The translations under genes and the position numbers were made by a program. Shown piece after piece: positions 5,106 through 64,000 of a DNA stretch of 64,000 nucleotides. The notes below the pieces were generated by a model. That model was not told the DNA's origin and did not search any database. It saw nothing but the letters and a program-made list of their open reading frames with translations. The stretch comes from a virus (taxonomy: Duplodnaviria; Caudoviricetes): positions 32,001-96,000 of the IMG/VR virus record IMGVR_UViG_3300033066_001917; one strand, written 5' to 3'. Each line of letters starts with the position of its first letter. Position 1 is the stretch's first letter.

Positions 5106-5646
5106 GGGATACTGGTCTCTTACGGACGAGCAGAGGATCCTGCTACAAAAAATCGTGTTCAAAAGGAACGTTTTGGATCTTGGGGCGGGGGACCTGACCC
5201 TATCCGAATGGTGCCTTCGTGCCGGAGCGGCATCCGTCACCGCCGTAGACACTTACCTGGATCGCCGACGAATTGAAGGGGTGATTCCTGTGTCCTGTAG
5301 GTTTCAGACCTACCTAGAACAGACCGTGGGTGATCCGCCTCATGATGTGTTAGTTCTATCCTGGCCAACCCGTTACGAATGTCTTGGATTGGTGGATCTT
5401 TTGAAAAAACACCCATGTGTTGTGTATCTTGGGAAAAACACAGATGGCCAGTGGAGTGGAACTCCTGGTATGTTTGAGGTTCTACAAAAAAGAGAAATTC
5501 TCCATCATATTCCGGATACGAGAAACACAATGCTCGTGTACGGTAATGAACCCGTGGATCGATCCCCCGTTTTAGAGGAAAAAGCTGGTATGGATCGAGA
5601 GAACCTGTATTTTCAGGATTCAGAGAAAAGGACAAAAGATGCGTGA
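5104..5646 (+). CDS. class I SAM-dependent methyltransferase-like protein
   Basis: VLDLGAGD motif I followed by VTAVD; overlaps the thyX start. Confidence 0.7.
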   Translation: MGYWSLTDEQRILLQKIVFKRNVLDLGAGDLTLSEWCLRAGAASVTAVDTYLDRRRIEGVIPVSCRFQTYLEQTVGDPPHDVLVLSWPTRYECLGLVDLLKKHPCVVYLGKNTDGQWSGTPGMFEVLQKREILHHIPDTRNTMLVYGNEPVDRSPVLEEKAGMDRENLYFQDSEKRTKDA

Positions 5647-7904: not shown

Positions 7905-8278
7905 GGGATCGACAGGTTTCGACAGAGGAGTAGATAGGAAAGAGTTGTAGCCGTTGATGCCGGGGACAACGTTAACACCCCTGGTGACTCACAAATGCGA
8001 ACGACAACGACGTTCCTGCTTTCGCCGCTGCTGCCTGAGAGTAGCCGCTAGAGCCCTGAAGGTGCCACCCCTGCCGATGGATGTCCCTTCTTGAAAAACA
8101 AAATTGGATAGGCCGAAAGACAGGCGACGTGTCTTCCGGAGTAGAACCAAACAGACGCAACGGTCGGATAGAACCTGCCCCTGGGTGCTTCTGGCAGTAG
8201 ACAAATCAGCGGCAAGGCTACAAACACTCTGAATTGACATGACTTTGGACCGGGGTTCGATTCCCCGCGATTCCACCA
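7905..8278 (+). ncRNA. ssrA: tmRNA, tag peptide ANDNDVPAFAAAA (7997-8038)
   Basis: 5' GGGATCG pairs with 3' CGATTCC-ACCA including a G3.U wobble; T-arm GGGGTTCGATTCCCC; tag ORF ends AA-TGA. Confidence 0.95.
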
Positions 8279-26227: not shown

Positions 26228-27442
26228 TCAAACCCCTAGGGTCTTGAGGACGGAGGTAAGGAGGGAATCCTTCCACCCGTTAGGGTTCTGGACTGTGGAC
26301 TTCCCCTGCTCACGTAGGAAGTCCACGTAGGTCAGGGAAGGATTCTCGCGGCGTGCAAAGCCGTACTGGATCGGGATCCCGTTGGTGTGAAGGGCGGTTG
26401 CCACGGTTTTGCGGTCGGCCGTGCCCTCCAGGGTGTCTACGTGGGTCTCGTAGAGGGTATCGTAGTTCCGGCACAGGTCCCGGAGACGATTCTGGATGCT
26501 ATCTCCCACGGCGCGAACCGCGGGGTTCAGGGTCATGGAGACATCGTCCCACTGGTTTCCCAGGATGAGGGCGAGGATCGACCGAGGGCTTTGGACGGTA
26601 TCCCCTTTGCTGTGGGCCGCAGCCACGTAATTCCGGCTTTTGACCTTCATCCGGCGGAAGCTCTGGGTATTCTCATCCCAGAGCTTGACGACGAGGCCCT
26701 CGAATCGCTTTGCGGGTTGCGCATGGACCCAGTTGAGAAGCTCGGTCACCGAACTGTGGCGGTGACGCTTCGGGGAATCCAGCCCGAGGCGCGAAGCAAC
26801 CTCGTGGGAATCCCGCTCTGTGCCCTTGACGTTATGGCGAACGGCCAGAAGGGTCACCCGCGAACAGTCTTGCGCCACACCCACCTCGTTGAAGGGGGTG
26901 GTGAGCTCGAAACTGTAGGTGTGATCCTTGTCAAATCCCTGCGCAAACTCGTCGAGGGGTTTCCCGGAGGTTTCCTCGAAGAGCTCACGGAAGCTCGAAC
27001 GGGTTAGGCTACCGACCCGTCCCTGGCCACGGGCCATGTTGCGCGTCCCGACGTGCCACCGATTGTCCTTGGGATCGAAGTAGACGAAGCAGAGAGTTCC
27101 ATCTTCTTTGGTTTCGAAGACGGCCGAGGGATCGGTGATGTCGAACTGGTCCTCGGGGCGGCCCTCGCCGAGGTTGAGGAATCGACGCATGGGCCGGGCC
27201 AGGACCACGGTATCACCGACCGGGTCATGAGGGTTGTAATCCTTCCGATCTTCGACCGGACGAATCACGGTTCCACGGCACTCACGGACGAGCGCATCGC
27301 TCGTTTTGCTTGCGAGCTGATCGTAGTTCAGGGACAGAACCACGTTCCCCGCATCATCATAGGCGGGGACGACCTTGACGCCGTGATTCTGAAAGAGCTC
27401 GGCGGGGGAACGATCCAGAAGAAACTTTTGAGCTTGAAGCAT
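26228..27442 (-). CDS. T4 Rnl1-like RNA ligase
   Basis: ECRG, RFLN.GE, motif I KEDGTL, FEL, EGLVV, KVKS..Y; GGAGG RBS. Confidence 0.9.
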   Translation of the reverse strand: MLQAQKFLLDRSPAELFQNHGVKVVPAYDDAGNVVLSLNYDQLASKTSDALVRECRGTVIRPVEDRKDYNPHDPVGDTVVLARPMRRFLNLGEGRPEDQFDITDPSAVFETKEDGTLCFVYFDPKDNRWHVGTRNMARGQGRVGSLTRSSFRELFEETSGKPLDEFAQGFDKDHTYSFELTTPFNEVGVAQDCSRVTLLAVRHNVKGTERDSHEVASRLGLDSPKRHRHSSVTELLNWVHAQPAKRFEGLVVKLWDENTQSFRRMKVKSRNYVAAAHSKGDTVQSPRSILALILGNQWDDVSMTLNPAVRAVGDSIQNRLRDLCRNYDTLYETHVDTLEGTADRKTVATALHTNGIPIQYGFARRENPSLTYVDFLREQGKSTVQNPNGWKDSLLTSVLKTLGV

Positions 27443-42630: not shown

Positions 42631-43707
42631 ATGTCTCAAGATTTTCAGCTCGCTTGGCCATGCCCCCATCTGCAAACTGAGCATGATCTGTCCCTACAAC
42701 CGGATCGGATGTCTCTTGTCACACGCACTCCTATTAACGGGATTGGTGCGATGGTGGTTCGGGCTAATGGTGTTGATATCCCAACCAACGGAATCAGTTC
42801 GAAGGCTTTTCTTCAATCTGGTCTCCGAGAACCTTACCTAGTCAGTCGGGGCAATACGGATCTCACCATCACCACTCAAAGCACCACAAAAGTTGTAAAC
42901 CTTACGCCCGGGTATGTTAGGGTACAAGACCTTGTTTCTGTTCTTCAAAGGTCCCTAGGATCCAGTGTTGTCGTCGGGAACAACAACGGGTTTCTAACGC
43001 TTACAGAGCAACTGGAACTTGGCCCTTTCTCTACCCTTCGAGTAACCGGAACCGCGGCCTCCTCAATTGGTTTTGGTTACCAGTGGGGTTCTGCCGGGCA
43101 GGTTGTTGTACCTCCATGGTCATTGTTCGGTCTTGGCGATGGGGGTTATCAAATTCGATTTTCCAAACCTATTCGATCAGGTTCTATTTTCAGCGTCACG
43201 TATCCCGTGGCTCCAACACAATGTCTTCGGTGTCGGGCTACAGGTATTGAGAATGACGTTCGAACGGGGGTTCGTGGGGATGCCAGGATGGTATCTGACA
43301 ACAACCTTTTGTATCAGATGTGCCTCAAGGTTATCCTCACCAACCTGCGTAGTAACATCTACTACCCCTGGTATGGGTCAAACATTAAGGCTTCAGTAGG
43401 GACGAAAGCTCAGAGTGGATCCGCACTCGCAATCCAGCAATCGGTTCGAACCGCTTTGTCTAATCTCCAGAATCTGCAGTCAGCCCAATCAAATTTTCAG
43501 TTGGTATCCCCTAAGGAAAGGCTGTTTGCCGTGGATCGTGTTCAGGTAACCGAGTCAGAAGTGGATCCTACGGTATTCCTTGTAGACGTTGCGGTGAGAA
43601 GTTACTCAAGTGATCCGGTAAGCATCACAATTGTTTATGCCGCTCCGGGCACGTATGCACTTCCCGGTACCAACGGGTTGTCACTTGGAATGGGAGGAAA
43701 TTCGTGA
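42631..43707 (+). CDS. baseplate wedge protein with gp25/GPW-like C-terminal domain
   Basis: LLYQ..LKVILT..SN.YYPWYGS...ERL..VD.V; directly upstream of the baseplate J-like gene. Confidence 0.72.
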   Translation: MSQDFQLAWPCPHLQTEHDLSLQPDRMSLVTRTPINGIGAMVVRANGVDIPTNGISSKAFLQSGLREPYLVSRGNTDLTITTQSTTKVVNLTPGYVRVQDLVSVLQRSLGSSVVVGNNNGFLTLTEQLELGPFSTLRVTGTAASSIGFGYQWGSAGQVVVPPWSLFGLGDGGYQIRFSKPIRSGSIFSVTYPVAPTQCLRCRATGIENDVRTGVRGDARMVSDNNLLYQMCLKVILTNLRSNIYYPWYGSNIKASVGTKAQSGSALAIQQSVRTALSNLQNLQSAQSNFQLVSPKERLFAVDRVQVTESEVDPTVFLVDVAVRSYSSDPVSITIVYAAPGTYALPGTNGLSLGMGGNS

Positions 43708-46700
43708 CCGTAACATTTGTATCTCCGGATGGCCTGGATAGGGAACACCTAGTTTTCAGCACCACGTCCGGGACTCGCTTTTTTCACGGGACCGTACCAT
43801 CAGGAACCGTCGATATCTTAGTATCCCTCCGCGGTGGTGCCTACACAACGGATCCATCTCTGGTGTATTTTGATGGTGGTACATCTTTCACCATCCCCAA
43901 TCCTTCTGCTTTCCCTAATGGTCTGGATCTCTTTGGGGGCGAGAACGTCATCGGAGCTAAGGCTGTTTCCCTTACGGGAGGGTCCTCTCTTCCTGCTACG
44001 GCAACCGTTTATCTTCTTCCATCTGGTGCTACACCTTTTCCACCCCCCTCTGGCATCTCTGTTGTTCGAACAGATTCCTCCGTTGTCATCCGGGCTCGTG
44101 GTTTGGATGATTCTCGCATTACGGGCTACAATTTTTACGCCTCTTTGGAGCCAGGAGGGGGGGTTGCGGGTTACACAAGATTGAATGTATATCCGGTTAC
44201 AACCTATGAGTCTTCGGACCTCACTTCTACGCTCTACACACTAACATCAAACAACCCCGTTGGAGCCGCCGACCCGACTTATGTTCGGGCCATTATACGA
44301 CAAGAAAACAGTTCCGAGGTGGTTCAATCTACGGACGTTGACAGTAGAGTTGAGATTCCGGATGGTGTTTCTACCCTGGCAACCTTAGTGACGCTTTCAT
44401 CAGTGGAAAGGATTCGTACCTATTCTTTCACCCACAATCGTCTGTTCAATGAATCCAGCGATCCAGCCACTATATTCGTGGGGTCCTTTGCTTCTCTACC
44501 GCCCTCTCAACCTCTATATTATGTGGTGACTGCCGTCTATTATGACGCGGTGACCGGCATCGAGTATGAGTCCTACTTCTCAACCGAAGTTGTCGCGAAC
44601 CCCGTTGATGTGAGGATTGCAACGACTGGTCTCCCTGTTGTTTCCAGGCAACAGGTTCTCCAGAATGCCGTTACTTCTATCTATGGTCGCAACAGCACCG
44701 TGGCAATTCAGCCCGGGAGTGTAATTCGGGACACCGTTCTTGACCCTTTCGCTACTGAAGCCGAGAGGCTGAGGTTTATCGTTGATTTCATGTATCGAGC
44801 AAGTTCGTTTGATACCTTGCTGCAAATCGACGATCCAAATGGCACTGGTGTAAGCATTCAGCCCACATCTTCGGCCTATAAAACTGCTCTGGCTTCTGCT
44901 TTCTTTCTTAGTAATCCTGCTGATGTCCAGCCCATTATTGATGGGGCATTTGATAAGCTAGCAGCAAATTTCGGTGTTCCCAGACCATCGGGAGAACGTG
45001 CTATTGGTGAGGCTAGGTTTTATACCCCGGTCACCCCCACCCGCACTTTAAGTGTTCCACTTGGTACTCGTGTCTCGGGTGGTGGTGTTCAATTCCGAAC
45101 AACCCGTGCCGCCGAGCTCCCACTGGAAAGTTTGGCTAGTTATTACAATCCAGTTACCAGAACGTATTCGGTCACCGTCCCCATTCAGGCGGTATCCGTG
45201 GGATCCTCTGGGAACTTGGATCGGGGGGCAATTCGATCCGGAGCTCCTTACGGTTTCAGTGTCACCAATGATTCAGAGACTTTTGGTGGGATGGATGTAT
45301 TTTCCAACGCACAGTTAGCCGCCCTCGCTCGCAGCGTCCTATCTTCCGTGGATACGGGCACGGCACAAGGGTACAGACAAACCGCGGCTCGTACTCCGGG
45401 TGTTATTCAAGTCGCCGTTGTAGGCGCCGGAAGTCCCTACATGCAGAGGGACTTTATCAATGGATCGCATGTGGGCGGCAAAGTGGATGTATGGACACAA
45501 GGGGTTAGGACATCCACAATTACCGACACTTTTGCTTTCTCATATCAGACAAAAAGAGACGTGCAATTTGTCGTGGTTGGGGATCCTCTGCTATATCAAT
45601 TTCGAGCAATAGATCCTAACCTGTCCCCATCGAACCCGCTAGCTCAAATGCTAGATTATCCTTCCTTGGGTCTTGGATTGAAAAACATTACTACAGGACA
45701 GGAATTTGACCTGACGGACGTAGAGATTGTTTCTTTCGACACAATCCGTCTGTCTACTGCCGTAGGGGTGGTTCAACCGGGGGTGACACTATCCGATGTT
45801 GTACTCGGTGACTTCCGGTACAGAATTGGAGACAAATATATTTTCTCCCGACAGCCGGTATCTTACGTGGCCTCTGTTGTTGGCGAGGAAAGTGGCGCGC
45901 TAGATGGTAGCACTTTTTATTTGGTTCACCCTAATAGTCCATTGGGTCTTGGGCGATCCACGAAAGCCGGAGATTATCTCCAGGTAATCTCCCCAAGTAC
46001 CAGTGGGGCTGTTGGGGCTAGTGGTCGTCTCATCACGGAGAACAACGAGCTTCATGTTCTTACCGGATTTTATGTTGAGTATGTGTTTGCATTGGGGGCT
46101 GATCCCCTTTCTCTAGTTGTTAAAGACAGTACTGGGACTACCACATACCTCGGGCCGCATACTCCTACCGGCACGCCAGACTATGAGATCGTTGAGGGTA
46201 CTCAAACAACACCCCTTGGAATTCGGCGGACAACTTCGAGCGCTATTCCGGATGGGGGTAGTGTTCTTATTGATTATGTCCACGACGAGAATTTTGTTGT
46301 GACATATCAAGTGAATCTTGTCACATCATCTTTGCAGGCAAATCTGGATACTTCCAGACATGCCACGGCCGATGTTCTGGCAAAAGATTCCATTCAAGTT
46401 CCTGTTAATATCGCGGCTACCGTTGTTCTTCAGCGGGGTGCTTTGCAGAGTACGGTGGATCAGACAATTCGTGATAACTTGCAATATCTTGTGTCGAACC
46501 TTCGGCTGGGGACTCCTTTGAGGCGTAGTGATGTTATCTCCGCGATTGATCAATCCTCCGGGGTCAGTTATGTTATTGTTCCACTCACAACCATGGCTAG
46601 AGCTGTTGGATCTACAGTTTCAAGAGAAGATATTGTCACTTCCGATCTTGGGTCATACACGCTTATCCCAGCGTGGTCCACATCTTCGGTACAAACGTGG

Positions 46701-47126
46701 TTGCTTACTAGAGGCTTAAGCTCTCCTCCGTATCCGGGGGGTGCACCTACTGGGGGCTTTTCCGGGGTTTTTCAGGACGATGTAAGTCTTATTCTGCAAT
46801 CTTCCAACCCCGAGCAACTGTCACAGGGTTCGGGTAGGGCTTACATTCAGGGGGATTCAGGTATATCAATTCCCGGTTATTCGGACGATGCTACCCTTCG
46901 GACTTTGGGGTATGTGACTCCCACGGAGATCCAACAAGCTAGGTATGATCTGACAAAAGGTAGAATTCTACTTTCCTTGCCTTTGGGGGATTCACCTTCC
47001 AATCACGACTATTGGGTTACTTATATTGTGGCAACGTCCTCCGGGGACCACGACATTGCCCCGACTCCCGTAGAGTATCTCGTTTTAGGTGATGTGTCTT
47101 TCACCTATGACGAAGATAGAGTATGA
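43704..47126 (+). CDS. baseplate wedge protein (baseplate J / gp6-like)
   Basis: PGSVIRD, DKLAANFGV.R...A.G..F, VPLGT.V....F.T, G..GN, GG.D, GGKVDVW. Confidence 0.82.
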   Translation: MTVTFVSPDGLDREHLVFSTTSGTRFFHGTVPSGTVDILVSLRGGAYTTDPSLVYFDGGTSFTIPNPSAFPNGLDLFGGENVIGAKAVSLTGGSSLPATATVYLLPSGATPFPPPSGISVVRTDSSVVIRARGLDDSRITGYNFYASLEPGGGVAGYTRLNVYPVTTYESSDLTSTLYTLTSNNPVGAADPTYVRAIIRQENSSEVVQSTDVDSRVEIPDGVSTLATLVTLSSVERIRTYSFTHNRLFNESSDPATIFVGSFASLPPSQPLYYVVTAVYYDAVTGIEYESYFSTEVVANPVDVRIATTGLPVVSRQQVLQNAVTSIYGRNSTVAIQPGSVIRDTVLDPFATEAERLRFIVDFMYRASSFDTLLQIDDPNGTGVSIQPTSSAYKTALASAFFLSNPADVQPIIDGAFDKLAANFGVPRPSGERAIGEARFYTPVTPTRTLSVPLGTRVSGGGVQFRTTRAAELPLESLASYYNPVTRTYSVTVPIQAVSVGSSGNLDRGAIRSGAPYGFSVTNDSETFGGMDVFSNAQLAALARSVLSSVDTGTAQGYRQTAARTPGVIQVAVVGAGSPYMQRDFINGSHVGGKVDVWTQGVRTSTITDTFAFSYQTKRDVQFVVVGDPLLYQFRAIDPNLSPSNPLAQMLDYPSLGLGLKNITTGQEFDLTDVEIVSFDTIRLSTAVGVVQPGVTLSDVVLGDFRYRIGDKYIFSRQPVSYVASVVGEESGALDGSTFYLVHPNSPLGLGRSTKAGDYLQVISPSTSGAVGASGRLITENNELHVLTGFYVEYVFALGADPLSLVVKDSTGTTTYLGPHTPTGTPDYEIVEGTQTTPLGIRRTTSSAIPDGGSVLIDYVHDENFVVTYQVNLVTSSLQANLDTSRHATADVLAKDSIQVPVNIAATVVLQRGALQSTVDQTIRDNLQYLVSNLRLGTPLRRSDVISAIDQSSGVSYVIVPLTTMARAVGSTVSREDIVTSDLGSYTLIPAWSTSSVQTWLLTRGLSSPPYPGGAPTGGFSGVFQDDVSLILQSSNPEQLSQGSGRAYIQGDSGISIPGYSDDATLRTLGYVTPTEIQQARYDLTKGRILLSLPLGDSPSNHDYWVTYIVATSSGDHDIAPTPVEYLVLGDVSFTYDEDRV

Positions 47127-61561: not shown

Positions 61562-61990
61562 ATGACGGAGCAGATCAAAGAGATCCGCGGAATTTTAGCA
61601 GTATTGGACCCATGCTTTCCCCTGGACAAGTCCATACGTTATTCAGGTCTTGAGTTGTTTGAAGACCGTGGTTGGAGGATTCTCCCCCAGGAGTCAATTG
61701 GTGACCCAAGTCTCCATACGGCTCTTATTCTTGATTTTGGTAATGGGGTTGTGAAGTTGTGCCCACACACTATTCGGGCCGAGTTTTGCTCGGTGGGATC
61801 CGAAACGAGGGACGGGATTCTAAGATCGATGGGAATGCAAATCCTGGAAGAATCAGGAACCACCAACACAACGGTATTGTTGAGGGTTCCTAAAACCCAA
61901 TCCGTTTTGGATTCTTTGGTCTACCTGAAAAACTCAGGTATTACCACTTCTTTGGATTTGATTTTTGTTCAAGCCGTAGTTTCGACTTGA
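61562..61990 (+). CDS. hypothetical protein
   Basis: isolated plus-strand ORF. Confidence 0.6.
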   Translation: MTEQIKEIRGILAVLDPCFPLDKSIRYSGLELFEDRGWRILPQESIGDPSLHTALILDFGNGVVKLCPHTIRAEFCSVGSETRDGILRSMGMQILEESGTTNTTVLLRVPKTQSVLDSLVYLKNSGITTSLDLIFVQAVVST

Positions 61991-62352
61991 GGGGCTTCAG
62001 GCTGCGGTGCTTCCGTCGGGATGGCAACAGTTGCCACCCCGAGTTTCTCGGTCCGAGCTTTGACCCAAGTCCGAAGCGTAGGGGGGCTTACATTGAGGGT
62101 TTTCGCCGCCTTGTAAACGACTCCACCGGCTTCCCCCAAGGCTTTGTCAATGACCGACTCCTCAACGCCACGAAGGGTACCATACCGCTTCCGAGCCACA
62201 TTCTCTGGCCAACAAGCCGGGTGCGCCTGAACTCGCTGGTGCAGGGCTTGGCGGGTGATGCCAAGCGCAGCCGCAGCTTTCACCATGTTGCCACCCTCCT
62301 TCTCCAGTGCAGATTTGGTCGCCGACATCTCATCATTGCTCAGTGTTTTCAT
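61969..62352 (-). CDS. DNA-binding protein with two tandem Fis-type HTH domains
   Basis: ALEKEGGNMVKAAAALGITRQALHQRV and ALGEAGGVVYKAAKTLNVSPPTLRTWV. Confidence 0.85.
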   Translation of the reverse strand: MKTLSNDEMSATKSALEKEGGNMVKAAAALGITRQALHQRVQAHPACWPENVARKRYGTLRGVEESVIDKALGEAGGVVYKAAKTLNVSPPTLRTWVKARTEKLGVATVAIPTEAPQPEAPQVETTA

Positions 62353-62376
62353 ATGTCTCTCTCTTTCCTTGCGGAG

Positions 62377-62449
62377 CGTGGCCGATGGGAGTCGAACCCA
62401 CTAACACCTGGATTTAGAATCCGGGCCCTTGCCGTTCGGGCACGACCAC
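62377..62449 (-). tRNA. tRNA with CUA anticodon (amber suppressor)
   Basis: GTGGTCG/CGGCCAC acceptor stem, CCCG-AACGGCA-AGGG D-arm, CCGGA-TTCTAAA-TCCAG anticodon arm, GTGGG-TTCGACT-CCCAT T-arm, G73. Confidence 0.88.
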
Positions 62450-62567: not shown

Positions 62568-62792
62568 TCACCTCACTCTAAAAATGCGATAGGTTTGATC
62601 CCCTACTGTCCGGTCCACGTACTCTCCTTTTTGAGTTAAGGGGTCGAATTCGATTCTGATTCTCCGACCAAAATCAAGTCGAAGTAGCTCTTCGAAAATG
62701 CTATCTTCGCTCGGGTCGTACTCACAAAGACCACATATAGAGTTGGTCTTCACATTCCCACACACTGCGCAAATTTCTTGTCTCATACTCAT
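62568..62792 (-). CDS. small zinc-ribbon protein
   Basis: CAVC..CGLC; ATGA overlap. Confidence 0.6.
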   Translation of the reverse strand: MSMRQEICAVCGNVKTNSICGLCEYDPSEDSIFEELLRLDFGRRIRIEFDPLTQKGEYVDRTVGDQTYRIFRVR

Positions 62793-64000
62793 TTTGGTGT
62801 TGTTGGACTTCCCGGAACGCTTGGTTGAGCCGTTGCCGCAGATTGTTTAGATAAGTGCCTCAGAAATTTTACGGACCCAAGTACCTCGTCTAGGGGCTCG
62901 TGCCTCAACCTACGGCACAGATCGTTAACATATGCGTGGGTCAAGTCATTTTCTTCGACCGATTTGACAATTGGTCCCCACATATCCGGGTTAACCCCAT
63001 AATGGTGGAGGAGATGACTGACAAGTTGGTGCGTTTCTTCTTTTGTGGGTACCGGGAATTCAATTGGTACATCAATCCTATCCGATCGAAGAAGGGCTGC
63101 ATCCAGTTTCGTAGTGTCATTGACGGTCAGAATGATGGCTGTTTTGGGGTGTGTCCCCTTTAATCTCTCCATGAGAAAAAGAATTCTTGCCCCAACGTCC
63201 TCTACTGGTGCCCGGTCCATATCGTCTACAACGAGGGTGTTTGGTTTGAGTACATCGAGTAGGTAACCAAAATCTTTTATCGCCATGAGATGGAGGGATG
63301 AGGCGTCAATTTTAACCGTTCTCCCTTCAAATTTCTGACCAAATTTAACCGCGAACGTGCTTTTACCTGTGCCGGGGGGGCCTAAACAAAGATAACATCG
63401 GTGGATACCGTCCTTAAGAAACTTGCGGTGCCTTGACGATAATACCTCAAGCTGATTTTCCGCTCTTTGGGACAGGATTGCTTGCACTGGGGGTATGTCC
63501 AGAACCGAAGTTTCTGATTTCCAACCACCCGGCTCTCGGACGACAGAAACGTAGATGCCGTTGGGGTGCTTCACCCACATTTCATTCACAACCATATCAA
63601 GGTTGAGGCCCCTTGATATGAAAAACCCACCATCTAAAACCAATCTGCCCATATACTGACATTCACGGAACGCCAGTCGGTCTCCGTTTCGGTTCACCGC
63701 TTCCACCATTGTTTCATTTTCCCCTACGGGAAGGCGGTTGATCCTAAAATGCTCCTTCATATCCGAATCAAAAAATAGTTTGACAAAGGTCTCACTTTCC
63801 TTTTCAATCATGTCGTATCTTTCTACCAGATCCCGGAATCGGTCACCATGCGCCCTGGCTTTGAGTGCGGCATCGGCGACGGCTAGACCTTTTGCTACCA
63901 TCTGAGCATACGTGTCTTCAGAGGTTGGGATTTTGTCCGCAACAAATGTACCAAACCTTAACAGGGGTAATGATCTGATGACTAGCTGGCGGGCTTTTGA
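62789..64000 (-). CDS. AAA+ ATPase (5' end probably outside the window)
   Basis: GPPGTGKS, LVVDDMD, TVN...LDAALLRSDRID; frame stays open to the window edge. Confidence 0.9.
   Translation of the reverse strand, partial: SKARQLVIRSLPLLRFGTFVADKIPTSEDTYAQMVAKGLAVADAALKARAHGDRFRDLVERYDMIEKESETFVKLFFDSDMKEHFRINRLPVGENETMVEAVNRNGDRLAFRECQYMGRLVLDGGFFISRGLNLDMVVNEMWVKHPNGIYVSVVREPGGWKSETSVLDIPPVQAILSQRAENQLEVLSSRHRKFLKDGIHRCYLCLGPPGTGKSTFAVKFGQKFEGRTVKIDASSLHLMAIKDFGYLLDVLKPNTLVVDDMDRAPVEDVGARILFLMERLKGTHPKTAIILTVNDTTKLDAALLRSDRIDVPIEFPVPTKEETHQLVSHLLHHYGVNPDMWGPIVKSVEENDLTHAYVNDLCRRLRHEPLDEVLGSVKFLRHLSKQSAATAQPSVPGSPTTPK

What the first reader, a model, noticed from the sequence alone, without database searches (positions are those of the whole stretch)
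62377..62449. Amber-suppressor tRNA (CUA) in a phage that is not visibly recoded
Seen: a full cloverleaf with loop TT-CTA-AA, canonical D-loop GG and TTCG T-loop, short variable loop, G1-C72, G73 and one C.A mismatch in the anticodon stem. ORFs in the window are long and intact under code 11 and many end in TAG. Established: CUA tRNAs occur in TAG-recoded phages, where genes carry in-frame TAGs. Inference: here suppression looks regulatory or offensive rather than a code change, for example timed read-through of specific genes or sabotage of host TAG termination, possibly working with the phage tmRNA. It could also be a precursor state to recoding. The charged amino acid cannot be determined from the sequence alone.
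Basis: partly seen in the sequence, partly recalled or inferred. Interest (0 to 1): 0.85.

Follow-up and report, generated by a model that had tools for sequence, protein, structure and literature searches.

The report
Phage amber tRNA unlocking a gated operon
A large wastewater/river phage that uses the normal genetic code carries a genuine UAG-reading tRNA whose most likely job is to switch on a neighbouring tRNA-recycling (Pth2) operon through a tiny UAG-interrupted leader, which suggests what the puzzling 'orphan' suppressor tRNAs of big phages are for.

Summary
The tRNA is real: window 62376-62449, minus strand, anticodon CUA. ARAGORN and Rfam both call it (42 bits). It is letter-identical in contigs from four independent studies.

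The 200-kb phage fragment is not recoded. Reading through TAG does not raise coding density, no protein domain spans a TAG, and the baseplate genes are intact under code 11.

The tRNA lies at the end of a same-strand gene row. That row opens, just past the window end, with a leader MNHFY-UAG-LNRSRGPP. The leader's Pro codons and the bases after them pair with the ribosome-binding site of a 146-aa gene that is translationally coupled to a Pth2 peptidyl-tRNA hydrolase.

In 81 distinct phage Pth2 loci, 60 carry a suppressor tRNA. Of 72 such tRNAs, 71 are on the Pth2 strand. The anticodon always fits the stop codon of the gate: UAG/CUA 44, UAA/UUA 3, UGA/UCA 1, UAG/UUA 1, and no misfit. Cultured Bxz1 and Myrna show the same pairing.

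My best reading is that the tRNA is the key of a read-through switch, not a code change. I found no paper describing this. This scan has reported the same module before, on this genome and on other DNA. The amino acid inserted and the purpose of the switch remain unknown.

The parts
62376..62449 (-). tRNA with anticodon CUA (amber suppressor); no encoded CCA, discriminator G73
   Evidence: ARAGORN; Rfam RF00005 at 42.3 bits; cloverleaf read; identical in contigs of four runs.
61969..62352 (-). 127-aa protein with two Fis-type HTH domains, starting 24 nt downstream of the tRNA on the same strand
   Evidence: Pfam HTH_8, E 3.6e-16, two stretches. One contig of an RNA-library run spans this gene's 5' half, the tRNA and 60 nt upstream (record 3). 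This is only a weak hint of co-transcription, because DNA can be present in such libraries.
62568..62792 (-). 74-aa Cys-rich small ORF between the AAA ATPase and the tRNA
   Evidence: ORF list; no Pfam match. Whether it belongs to the module was not tested.
62789..64000 (-). AAA+ ATPase gene (415 aa), running past the window end to window-equivalent 64036. Upstream of it on the same strand, outside the window (window-equivalent = L001 position + 58000): Pth2 at 64062-64397; ORF-X (146 aa) at 64394-64834; leader ATG at 64933, gate TAG at 64916-64918, RGPP codons at 64892-64903; promoter-like site at 65565-65593
   Evidence: Pfam AAA, E 7e-11. Pth2 PF01981 at 46 bits. Leader and hairpin read and folded. 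Promoter-like TTGACA-17-AATAGT, with no convincing terminator between it and the tRNA. Of these, only the ATPase lies partly inside the window.

Best explanation
This is a functional amber-suppressor tRNA that works as the trans-acting key of a one-codon translational gate on the operon it belongs to. The gene row on the minus strand is: promoter-like site, 194-aa gene, leader, ORF-X (146 aa), Pth2 peptidyl-tRNA hydrolase, AAA ATPase, 74-aa ORF, tRNA(CUA), HTH gene. The leader reads M(VTSVM)NHFY-UAG-LNRSRGPP. Without suppression, ribosomes stop at the UAG. A hairpin, whose 5' arm is the last Pro codon plus the 10 bases after it, then keeps the ribosome-binding site of ORF-X closed. With charged tRNA(CUA), ribosomes read on to Arg-Gly-Pro-Pro, a motif shown by others to arrest ribosomes robustly. 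They stall on the 5' arm, the hairpin opens, ORF-X is translated, and Pth2 follows through the overlapping TGA/ATG. Shown here: the tRNA, the gate, the RGPP motif, the predicted hairpin, the coupling overlap, the recurrence of the layout, and the match between anticodon and gate stop across phages. Inferred: that the tRNA is charged, that read-through and stalling actually happen, and that they switch the operon on. Why Pth2 output is tied to suppression is unknown. My guess is that it either scales peptidyl-tRNA clean-up to the amount of read-through, or delays the operon until the phage's own tRNAs are mature.
For: The tRNA is canonical and invariant in four independent studies. The operon and leader are read, and Pth2 is confirmed. 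A near-identical strain (X2) has a 1-nt deletion just after the RGPP codons. It keeps MNHFY-TAG-LNRSRGPP but changes the downstream frame, so the peptide up to RGPP is what is kept. The hairpin hiding the ribosome-binding site is predicted. In at least 13 of 21 leader loci the Pro-Pro codons (CCUCC) pair with the GGAGG of ORF-X. The same leader type precedes ORF-X and Pth2 in about 23 loci, for example MVMIHFW-TAG-ICPRGPP in L081 with tRNA(CUA) 44 nt after Pth2. In 81 distinct phage Pth2 loci, 60 carry a suppressor tRNA and 71 of 72 such tRNAs are on the Pth2 strand, a median 691 nt after its start. Gate stop and anticodon pair as TAG/CUA 44, TAA/UUA 3, TGA/UCA 1 and TAG/UUA 1 (possible by wobble), with no misfit. 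Suppressors make up 82 of 403 tRNAs in these loci, against 1 of 37 in this genome overall. The base after the gate stop is a purine in 62 of 65 gates. Cultured Bxz1 and Myrna and the huge phages LR756500 and LR756501 carry ATG-(0-2 codons)-TAG at the Pth2 start plus tRNA(CUA) downstream. RGPP and RAPP are experimentally robust arrest motifs (PMC12992588, PMC10951233).
Against: Nothing here shows expression, charging or read-through. The only RNA evidence is one contig in an RNA library that may contain DNA. The hairpin's folding z-score is modest: -2.5 for the 126-nt region and -1.1 in the shorter segment. The base after this gate's UAG is C, the minority context among gates. Known RAPP/RGPP arrest peptides are longer, and many sit on secretory or membrane proteins, whereas here the nascent chain would be only 14-19 residues. 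In this phage Pth2 has no early UAG of its own, and the tRNA lies 1.6 kb from it, further than the median. Fifty-five phage genes end in TAG and have no nearer back-up stops than other genes (median extension 20 codons, against 16 and 14), so an efficient suppressor would be costly. The record is only about 38% complete by CheckV.
Confidence: 0.62

Rival explanations
1. The tRNA is a general suppressor that makes ribosomes read through many UAG stops, of host genes or of the phage's own. Pth2, and perhaps the tmRNA, only clean up the stalled ribosomes and dropped peptidyl-tRNAs that result. On this reading the UAG gate is a feed-forward dosage device and not the tRNA's reason to exist.
For: The phage carries a tmRNA, a Pth2 and an RF1-like factor. 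Tying Pth2 output to read-through makes sense if read-through creates work for Pth2. The suppressor tRNAs come from many tRNA types, as expected if any inserted residue will do.
Against: Eighteen percent of the phage's own genes end in TAG with no extra back-up stops. No host is known, so host TAG use cannot be checked. The tight linkage to Pth2, on the same strand and with a matching stop, is not required by this idea. The authors of XacN1 found nothing beyond its amber stops (PMC5852040). This reading is compatible with the best explanation and not strictly exclusive of it.
Confidence: 0.15
2. The gate measures termination and not the tRNA. The tRNA is always present, and the variable is how well RF1, or the phage's own short RF1-like factor, competes at the UAG. 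The leader would then report release-factor activity or A-site competition.
For: The genome encodes an RF1-like protein (prfA 176 bits, prfB 121, prfH 75). It starts at domain 2, has GGQ, has PPN where RF1 has PxT, and needs a +1 shift at GGAGGG-N-CUU-UGA-C. The residues before the gate stop are conserved (HF[WY], [YF]L), which could tune termination.
Against: The gate stop changes together with the anticodon of the neighbouring tRNA, including a UGA gate with UCA tRNAs where RF1 plays no part. Most module-bearing loci were not checked for a release factor.
Confidence: 0.1
3. The tRNA is a first step towards, or a leftover of, TAG recoding (code 15). The missing 60% of the genome may hold TAG-interrupted late genes.
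For: Borges et al. (bioRxiv 10.1101/2021.08.26.457843) saw suppressor tRNAs in standard-code relatives of recoded phages and proposed this route. TAG is the rarest stop here. The record is a fragment.
Against: GC content is 51% and TAG still ends 55 genes, so TAG is not depleted in the way that model requires. Coding density gains nothing from TAG read-through in any 10-kb bin beyond what the TGA and TAA controls give. None of five candidate TAG-joined ORF pairs has a domain across the junction. A 17-kb run of large ORFs at window 42.6-60 kb is intact under code 11, and one of them, at 43704-47126, matches baseplate wedge phrog_6. The same module sits in complete standard-code genomes of cultured phages.
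Confidence: 0.08
4. The gene is a decayed or non-decoding tRNA that happens to read CUA.
For: There is a C.A mismatch in the anticodon stem, a 3-bp D stem plus a G.A pair, C at position 10, and the lowest Rfam score of the window's three tRNAs. This genome also holds several non-decoding tRNA look-alikes, according to earlier notes.
Against: All universal positions are in place: U8, A14, GG, U33, A37, TTCGA and C61. The acceptor stem has seven pairs. The sequence is invariant while flanking DNA varies. A matching UAG gate lies in the same operon, and the pairing recurs.
Confidence: 0.05

Closest known systems
Suppressor tRNA(CUA) of TAG-recoded ('code 15') phages: crAss-like, Lak and others (bioRxiv 10.1101/2021.08.26.457843; PMC9523058)
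   Same: A phage-encoded CUA tRNA in a phage whose host presumably uses the standard code. The idea that the tRNA times the expression of certain genes is also shared.
   Different: Those phages carry in-frame TAG in many structural and lysis genes, read as Gln. Here no conserved gene carries an internal TAG. The only conserved target is one codon in a leader, or in relatives in the first few codons of Pth2, where the inserted residue is probably irrelevant.
'Orphan' suppressor tRNAs of standard-code jumbo phages: XacN1 (two CUA; PMC5852040), Atu_ph07 (UCA; PMC6102473), phiKp24 (UUA; PMC8386662), and the Bxz1 'tRNA-OTHER'
   Same: The situation is the same: standard code, many tRNAs, one suppressor, and Pth genes in the same genomes.
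   Different: Those papers found no target (XacN1) or only speculated. Here a specific cis target is proposed. I verified the pairing in Bxz1 and Myrna. I did not check XacN1, Atu_ph07 or phiKp24.
RAPP/RGPP regulatory arrest peptides: ApdA, ApdP, ApcA and Streptomyces lividans examples (PMC7897499, PMC10951233, PMC12992588); SecM-secA logic
   Same: A short upstream ORF ends in Arg-Gly/Ala-Pro-Pro. It lies before a structure that hides the next gene's ribosome-binding site, and the stalled ribosome opens that structure.
   Different: Here the arrest motif lies behind a stop codon and is reached only by read-through. The input would therefore be a suppressor tRNA, not secretion or membrane insertion. 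The nascent chain is far shorter, and stalling has not been tested.
Laboratory amber suppressors (supE, supF, su7 of E. coli; T4 psu1): recalled from memory, not tested here
   Same: An elongator tRNA body with anticodon CUA. A purine after UAG favours suppression in those systems, and the gates here are followed by a purine in 62 of 65 cases.
   Different: Those are single-mutation derivatives of a known isoacceptor. This tRNA has no close paralogue in the genome (best 76%, to an Arg-UCU tRNA) and no match in E. coli.
tRNA-Pyl (the label ARAGORN gives)
   Same: Only the CUA anticodon.
   Different: This tRNA has the GG D loop, the TTCGA T loop and a 5-6 nt variable loop, all of which tRNA-Pyl lacks. 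It is not a member.

Membership tests
Canonical elongator tRNA (Rfam RF00005) | Cloverleaf scoring above the family's gathering score, with the universal positions U8, A14, G18G19, U33, T54-Psi55-C56 and a 7-bp acceptor stem | tested here: met
   42.3 bits against 29; ARAGORN cloverleaf; positions read directly.
Amber suppressor tRNA | Anticodon CUA at positions 34-36 of a 7-nt loop flanked by U33 and a purine at 37 | tested here: met
   Loop UU-CUA-AA; unchanged in four runs.
Amber suppressor tRNA | Is aminoacylated and inserts an amino acid at UAG | not testable with these tools
   No reads of charged tRNA and no proteome are available. No GlnRS/GluRS-type or TrpRS/TyrRS-type synthetase is encoded in the 200 kb, so a host enzyme would have to charge it.
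tRNA-Pyl | Small D loop without GG, no T-Psi-C sequence, 3-nt variable loop, 6-bp anticodon stem | tested here: not met
   GG and TTCGA are present and the variable loop is 5-6 nt.
TAG-recoded (code 15) phage | In-frame TAG inside conserved genes, and coding density that rises when TAG is read as sense | tested here: not met
   Coverage 0.888 against 0.901, no more than the TGA and TAA controls. TAG-joined ORF pairs are no more frequent than TGA-joined pairs: 6 of 55 against 17 of 167. No domain spans a TAG. Only about 38% of the genome is available.
Stop-gated Pth2 / suppressor-tRNA module (defined in this scan, not published) | A PF01981 Pth2 gene with a suppressor tRNA on the same strand within a few kb downstream | tested here: met
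   Pth2 at 46 bits. The tRNA lies 1.6 kb downstream on the same strand. The pattern is seen in 60 of 81 loci.
Stop-gated Pth2 / suppressor-tRNA module (defined in this scan, not published) | A stop codon that matches the tRNA's anticodon, placed either in the first codons of Pth2 or in a leader before the operon | tested here: met
   Leader MNHFY-TAG with tRNA CUA. Forty-nine of 49 loci that have both a gate and a suppressor are compatible.
Stop-gated Pth2 / suppressor-tRNA module (defined in this scan, not published) | An ORF-X family gene between the leader and Pth2 | tested here: met
   phmmer E 7e-8 to 1e-4 against six other loci. Shared core R..LLAYAFLRG.PY...E...W. The pairwise BLASTP to the L081 copy alone is not significant.
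RAPP/RGPP arrest peptide | An R-[AG]-P-P motif in a small upstream ORF, followed by a structure hiding the downstream ribosome-binding site | tested here: met
   RGPP at L001 6903-6892. Hairpin predicted. It is the only such stop-proximal RGPP preceded by a Met in the whole genome.
RAPP/RGPP arrest peptide | Demonstrated elongation arrest at the motif | not testable with these tools
   This needs toeprinting or a reporter assay.

The most novel reading that the evidence does not exclude
The suppressor tRNAs of large standard-code phages exist mainly to operate a self-contained sensor circuit. A phage tRNA reads a matching stop codon placed in front of an RGPP arrest motif whose Pro codons double as an anti-Shine-Dalgarno element. 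Only then are ORF-X and a Pth2 hydrolase made. The circuit would let the phage measure the working state of its own tRNA supply, or the competition between tRNA and release factor at the ribosomal A site, for example under host attack on tRNAs. It would be a natural, portable, tRNA-operated translational switch that has arisen with all three stop codons.
Probability: 0.35. Interest if true: 0.85.

Novelty: new variant of a known kind. Interest (0 to 1): 0.72.

Why it matters
Suppressor tRNAs keep turning up in big phages that do not use an altered code, and published genome papers could not say what they read (XacN1, PMC5852040). This locus, with the 81 related loci examined here, gives a concrete and testable answer. 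The tRNA pairs with a single deliberate stop codon that gates a Pth2 operon, either directly in the first few codons of Pth2 or through a read-through-dependent arrest leader.

If confirmed, this would have several consequences:
- It would be a minimal natural example of tRNA-controlled gene expression.
- It would add a new input (stop-codon read-through) to the arrest-peptide family.
- It would correct the annotation of Pth2 starts and 'tRNA-OTHER' or 'tRNA-Ser' genes in hundreds of mycobacteriophage records.
- It would offer a compact orthogonal switch for synthetic biology.

The idea can be tested at once in cultured, harmless systems such as Bxz1 or Myrna on Mycobacterium smegmatis.

Tried and rejected
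1. Close relatives through the AAA ATPase. I therefore could not read the contigs of the 62-98% identical relatives or check their tRNAs. Loci recovered through the ATPase in IMG/VR and metagenomes are distant (about 30% identity) and lack both Pth2 and a suppressor. The ATPase is therefore not a fixed part of the module.

2. An exact 31-nt tRNA pattern in viral contigs gave no hit. blastn of the tRNA gave only a 76% match to a phage tRNA-Cys and nothing in E. coli genomes, so no isotype could be assigned by similarity.

3. The first Pth2 alignments gave no IMG/VR loci or were too diverse to search with. Narrower alignments worked.

4. Five ORF pairs joined by TAG were tested as possible read-through fusions, in the window and at genome 170-177 kb. 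No Pfam or PHROG domain crosses a junction, so they are neighbouring genes.

5. An apparent 'MMPKT-TAG' in front of the RF1-like gene is an artefact. That stretch is read in the other frame before the +1 shift site.

6. In this sequence the leader is in frame with ORF-X, which suggested an N-terminally extended protein. Two strains have a 1-nt deletion after RGPP that breaks the frame, so I dropped this reading.

7. ORF-X function. There is no Pfam hit in any of 22 members. The AlphaFold model has pLDDT 82, but Foldseek gives E > 2 and VIA-align gives Z <= 5.2 on a helical model. That is below what counts as a match.

8. Early-TAG mini-ORFs before other genes of this genome are about twice as frequent as for TGA or TAA: 14 of 68, against 13 of 136 and 9 of 98. 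Most are ends of upstream genes, and I make no claim from this.

9. Parts of the stretch had no cover in the RNA-library run. That says nothing about expression.

Full report
**The observation.** ARAGORN calls a 74-nt tRNA at window 62376-62449 on the minus strand with anticodon CUA. Rfam's tRNA model matches 62377-62449 at 42.3 bits, against a gathering score of 29. Read 5'->3' on the minus strand, the molecule has:
- a 7-bp acceptor stem (G1-C72, one U.G pair);
- U8, a short D arm with A14 and GG;
- an anticodon stem with one C.A mismatch, and the loop UU-CUA-AA;
- a 5-6 nt variable loop and a GGTTCGACTCC T arm;
- discriminator G73 and no encoded CCA.

ARAGORN's 'Pyl' label follows from the anticodon alone. 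The features that define tRNA-Pyl are absent.

**Is the anticodon real?** The stretch occurs in runs of 11 studies, from wastewater, river and activated sludge. I laid contigs of four runs from four studies on it. They show many differences in the flanks, the nearest 9 nt upstream of the tRNA, but none inside the tRNA. One 429-nt contig from a metatranscriptome library spans the tRNA and the start of the next gene. Such libraries can contain DNA, so this is only a weak hint of transcription.

**What the genome is, and its code.** The window is part of a single 200,245-bp IMG/VR virus record that CheckV rates about 38% complete. It carries 37 tRNAs and a tmRNA. It also has a baseplate wedge gene and an Rnl1-like RNA ligase.
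- Greedy ORF coverage is 0.888 under code 11 and 0.901 if TAG is read through. The control read-throughs give 0.907 (TGA) and 0.891 (TAA), and no 10-kb bin stands out.
- With a codon-bias gene set of 303 genes, stops are TGA 167, TAA 81 and TAG 55.
- In-frame coding-like extensions after the stop are no more common for TAG (6 of 55) than for TGA (17 of 167).
- Five candidate TAG-joined ORF pairs have no Pfam or PHROG domain across the junction.
- A 17-kb run of large ORFs at window 42.6-60 kb is open under code 11; one of them matches baseplate wedge phrog_6.

The available 200 kb therefore uses the standard code. The unseen part cannot be judged.

**The neighbourhood.** The tRNA is the second-to-last gene of a same-strand row. 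In L001 coordinates (window = L001 + 58000) the row is:
- promoter-like site 7593-7565;
- a 194-aa gene;
- a short leader;
- a 146-aa gene, which I call ORF-X (6834-6394);
- a Pth2 peptidyl-tRNA hydrolase (6397-6062; PF01981 at 46 bits), whose ATG overlaps the TGA of ORF-X;
- an AAA ATPase (6036-4789);
- a 74-aa Cys-rich ORF;
- the tRNA (4449-4376);
- a double Fis-type HTH gene (4352-3969).

No convincing terminator lies in between.

The leader reads ATG..AAC CAC TTC TAC TAG CTC AAT CGA TCC CGT GGA CCC CCC, that is M(VTSVM)NHFY-UAG-LNRSRGPP. It is the only place in the whole genome where a Met-initiated mini-ORF, a stop and R[AG]PP follow each other. The last Pro codon and the next 10 bases (CCUGUAAUGAUG) pair with CAUCAUUACAAGG, which contains the AAGGA ribosome-binding site of ORF-X.

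In this sequence the leader frame runs on into ORF-X. In two near-identical strains a 1-nt deletion directly after the Pro codons shifts that frame, while MNHFY-TAG-LNRSRGPP is untouched in the strain that could be read in full. What is kept is therefore the peptide up to RGPP, not a fusion protein.

**Relatives.**
- Searching through the ATPase reached only distant loci without Pth2 or suppressor.
- Searching through Pth2 was productive. A profile search finds 708 relatives at E < 1e-10.
- Two IMG/VR scans gave 96 loci, 81 of them distinct.
- ARAGORN finds a suppressor tRNA in 60 of the 81 loci. Of 72 suppressors, 71 lie on the Pth2 strand, at a median 691 nt after the Pth2 start.
- Suppressors are 82 of 403 tRNAs in these loci. 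They are 1 of 37 in this genome as a whole and 0 of 47 in two tRNA-rich stretches of phages whose Pth2 locus lacks a suppressor.

**The gate.** In most loci the Pth2 reading frame begins ATG-(0-3 codons)-stop, just before the conserved core. In about 23 loci a leader of the form M-x(2-8)-stop-x(1-10)-R-[GA]-P-P precedes an ORF-X gene and Pth2. Some loci have both.

The stop matches the neighbouring tRNA:

| Gate stop | Suppressor anticodon | Loci |
|---|---|---|
| TAG | CUA | 44 |
| TAA | UUA | 3 |
| TGA | UCA | 1 |
| TAG | UUA (compatible by wobble) | 1 |
| any misfit | | 0 |

- Fifteen loci have neither a gate nor a suppressor.
- Six have a gate but no suppressor within the few kb fetched.
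- Eleven have a suppressor but no gate by my strict patterns.

Leader examples:
- MVMIHFW-TAG-ICPRGPP in L081, a 320-kb phage, with tRNA(CUA) 44 nt after Pth2;
- MIHFW-TAG-IFSRGPP;
- MMHFW-TAA-IRGPP with a UUA tRNA;
- MKHHL-TGA-IHTCRGPP with two UCA tRNAs.

The base after the gate stop is a purine in 62 of 65 gates. From memory, that is the context known to favour suppression in E. coli. This phage's gate has C there.

Cultured phages show the same cassette. Bxz1 has ATG-TAG-GTG at gp154, with a CUA tRNA annotated 'tRNA-OTHER' 300 nt downstream. Myrna has GTG-TAG-GTG at gp84, with a CUA tRNA annotated tRNA-Ser. So do the huge phages LR756500 and LR756501.

**The arrest-leader mechanism.** RAPP and RGPP are experimentally robust arrest motifs that EF-P does not relieve (PMC12992588; PMC10951233; PMC7897499). 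I folded the stretch from the Pro-Pro codons to the ORF-X start in 21 leader loci. In at least 13, the Pro codons themselves (CCUCC) pair with the GGAGG of ORF-X, although the sequence in between differs. A ribosome parked on Pro-Pro would cover exactly that arm.

The ORF-X genes form a family that includes this phage's 146-aa protein. phmmer gives E 7e-8 to 1e-4 against six other loci, and the shared core is R..LLAYAFLRG.PY...E...W. The pairwise BLASTP to the L081 copy alone is not significant. The function of ORF-X is unknown:
- no Pfam hit in any member;
- a confident helical model, pLDDT 82;
- no structural match above background.

**Which amino acid?** This cannot be told.
- The tRNA has no close paralogue in the genome; the best match is 76%, to an Arg-UCU tRNA.
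- It has no match in E. coli.
- No GlnRS/GluRS-type or TrpRS/TyrRS-type synthetase is encoded in the 200 kb.
- Across the module, the 75 distinct suppressor tRNAs are heterogeneous: discriminator G 32, A 28, U 12, C 3; several have long variable arms; 27 encode CCA.

This fits gates placed where the inserted residue does not matter, in a leader or in a non-conserved N-terminal tag.

**Other translation genes.** The genome also encodes an RF1-like factor (PF00472 at 102 bits; prfA 176, prfB 121 and prfH 75 bits). It starts at domain 2, keeps GGQ, and has PPN where RF1 has PxT. It could compete with the tRNA at UAG; I did not test this. The tmRNA tag frame ends in TGA, so the amber suppressor would not extend it. 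I found nothing that links the tmRNA to the tRNA.

**Most likely working.**
- Shown: a canonical CUA tRNA; a UAG-interrupted RGPP leader in the same gene row; a predicted hairpin over the ORF-X ribosome-binding site; the ORF-X/Pth2 start-stop overlap; recurrence of the layout; and agreement between anticodon and gate stop.
- Inferred: the tRNA is charged by a host enzyme; it reads the leader's UAG; the ribosome then stalls on RGPP and opens the hairpin; ORF-X and Pth2 are translated.
- Unknown: why. Two readings seem reasonable. One is that Pth2 output is scaled to the amount of read-through. The other is that the operon is held back until the phage's tRNAs are mature.

Confidence is about 0.97 that the tRNA is real, about 0.9 that it belongs to the stop-gated Pth2 module, and about 0.6 for the whole chain.

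**Rivals.**
- Global or 'offensive' suppression, with Pth2 as clean-up, is compatible with much of the evidence. It does not explain the tight linkage, and it would be costly for the 55 phage genes that end in TAG.
- A sensor of release-factor activity is possible, but the gate stop follows the tRNA's anticodon, including a UGA gate.
- A step towards recoding is unlikely, given ordinary GC content, ordinary TAG use and the presence of the module in complete standard-code genomes.
- A dead tRNA is unlikely, given its invariance and its matching gate.

**Known or new?** Suppressor tRNAs in recoded phages are well described. Suppressors in standard-code jumbo phages have been reported without a target (PMC5852040, PMC6102473, PMC8386662). 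PTH2 in jumbo phages has been noted without any link to suppressors (PMC7824862). Five further full-text searches found no paper that connects phage suppressor tRNAs with Pth2, early stops or arrest leaders. The held library is not complete.

This scan has already reported the same module on this genome (the leader) and on other phages. My results agree with those notes and were obtained from fresh searches. I class the tRNA as a new variant of a known kind: a phage suppressor tRNA used as the key of a single-codon switch.

**Limits.**
- There is no experimental evidence of charging, read-through or stalling.
- The phage is uncultured, its host is unknown and the record is a fragment.
- My gate patterns are simple regular expressions, and a few ORF-X starts are probably mis-set.
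- The related loci are not phylogenetically independent, so the counts overstate the number of independent events.

Noticed in passing
L083 2733-2806; L093 3092-3167; L094 5574-5649; L092 6280-6356 (minus strand): Near Pth2 genes that lack a stop gate lie odd tRNA-like genes that ARAGORN calls Ile(AAU). Their anticodon loops contain the shared string UAAUGA, and the loop in L093 is 9 nt. They are not ordinary decoders, and their loop spells two stop codons in sense orientation.
   Followed up: no
L081 5698-7350: Directly after the tRNA(CUA) of this 320-kb relative lies a Ro60-like gene (vWA_Ro60 E 1e-16, TROVE E 8e-8). This places an RNA quality-control protein next to the suppressor module.
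   Followed up: partly
genome C1 163607-164116, minus strand (L078 1438-2116): A short RF1-like release factor begins at domain 2 (MSVHVEIRAAEGGDD). It has a GGAGGG-N-CUU-UGA-C +1 frameshift site, keeps GGQ, and has PPN where RF1 has the PxT codon-reading motif.
   Followed up: partly
window 7997-8038: The tag reading frame of the phage tmRNA (ANDNDVPAFAAAA) ends in TGA, followed two codons later by TAG. The amber suppressor would not extend the tag.
   Followed up: yes
L001 5955-6824 (window-equivalent 63955-64824): In one strain (run X15, a 12-kb contig) the stretch between the ATPase and Pth2 is replaced by 1405 other letters, and most of ORF-X by 429 other letters, while the leader and the ATPase are kept. 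The inside of the module is a hot spot of replacement.
   Followed up: no
L075 3971-3979 and 4657-4729 (Bxz1 NC_004687); L098 2471-2479 and 2963-3034 (Myrna NC_011273): GenBank annotation starts the Pth2 gene at the GTG right after an ATG-TAG or GTG-TAG. It labels the CUA tRNA 'tRNA-OTHER' in Bxz1 and 'tRNA-Ser' in Myrna. About 200 cluster C mycobacteriophage records probably share this.
   Followed up: partly
window 5546-5575: A mini-ORF MNPWIDPPF-TAG lies in frame 21 codons before a 617-aa gene with a thymidylate-synthase-like C-terminal part (phrog_85), just upstream of the tmRNA. It may be a second amber-ended leader or may be chance.
   Followed up: no
window 26228-27442, minus strand: An Rnl1-like RNA ligase (phrog_562, E 3e-28) adds to the tRNA repair and translation toolkit of this phage.
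   Followed up: no
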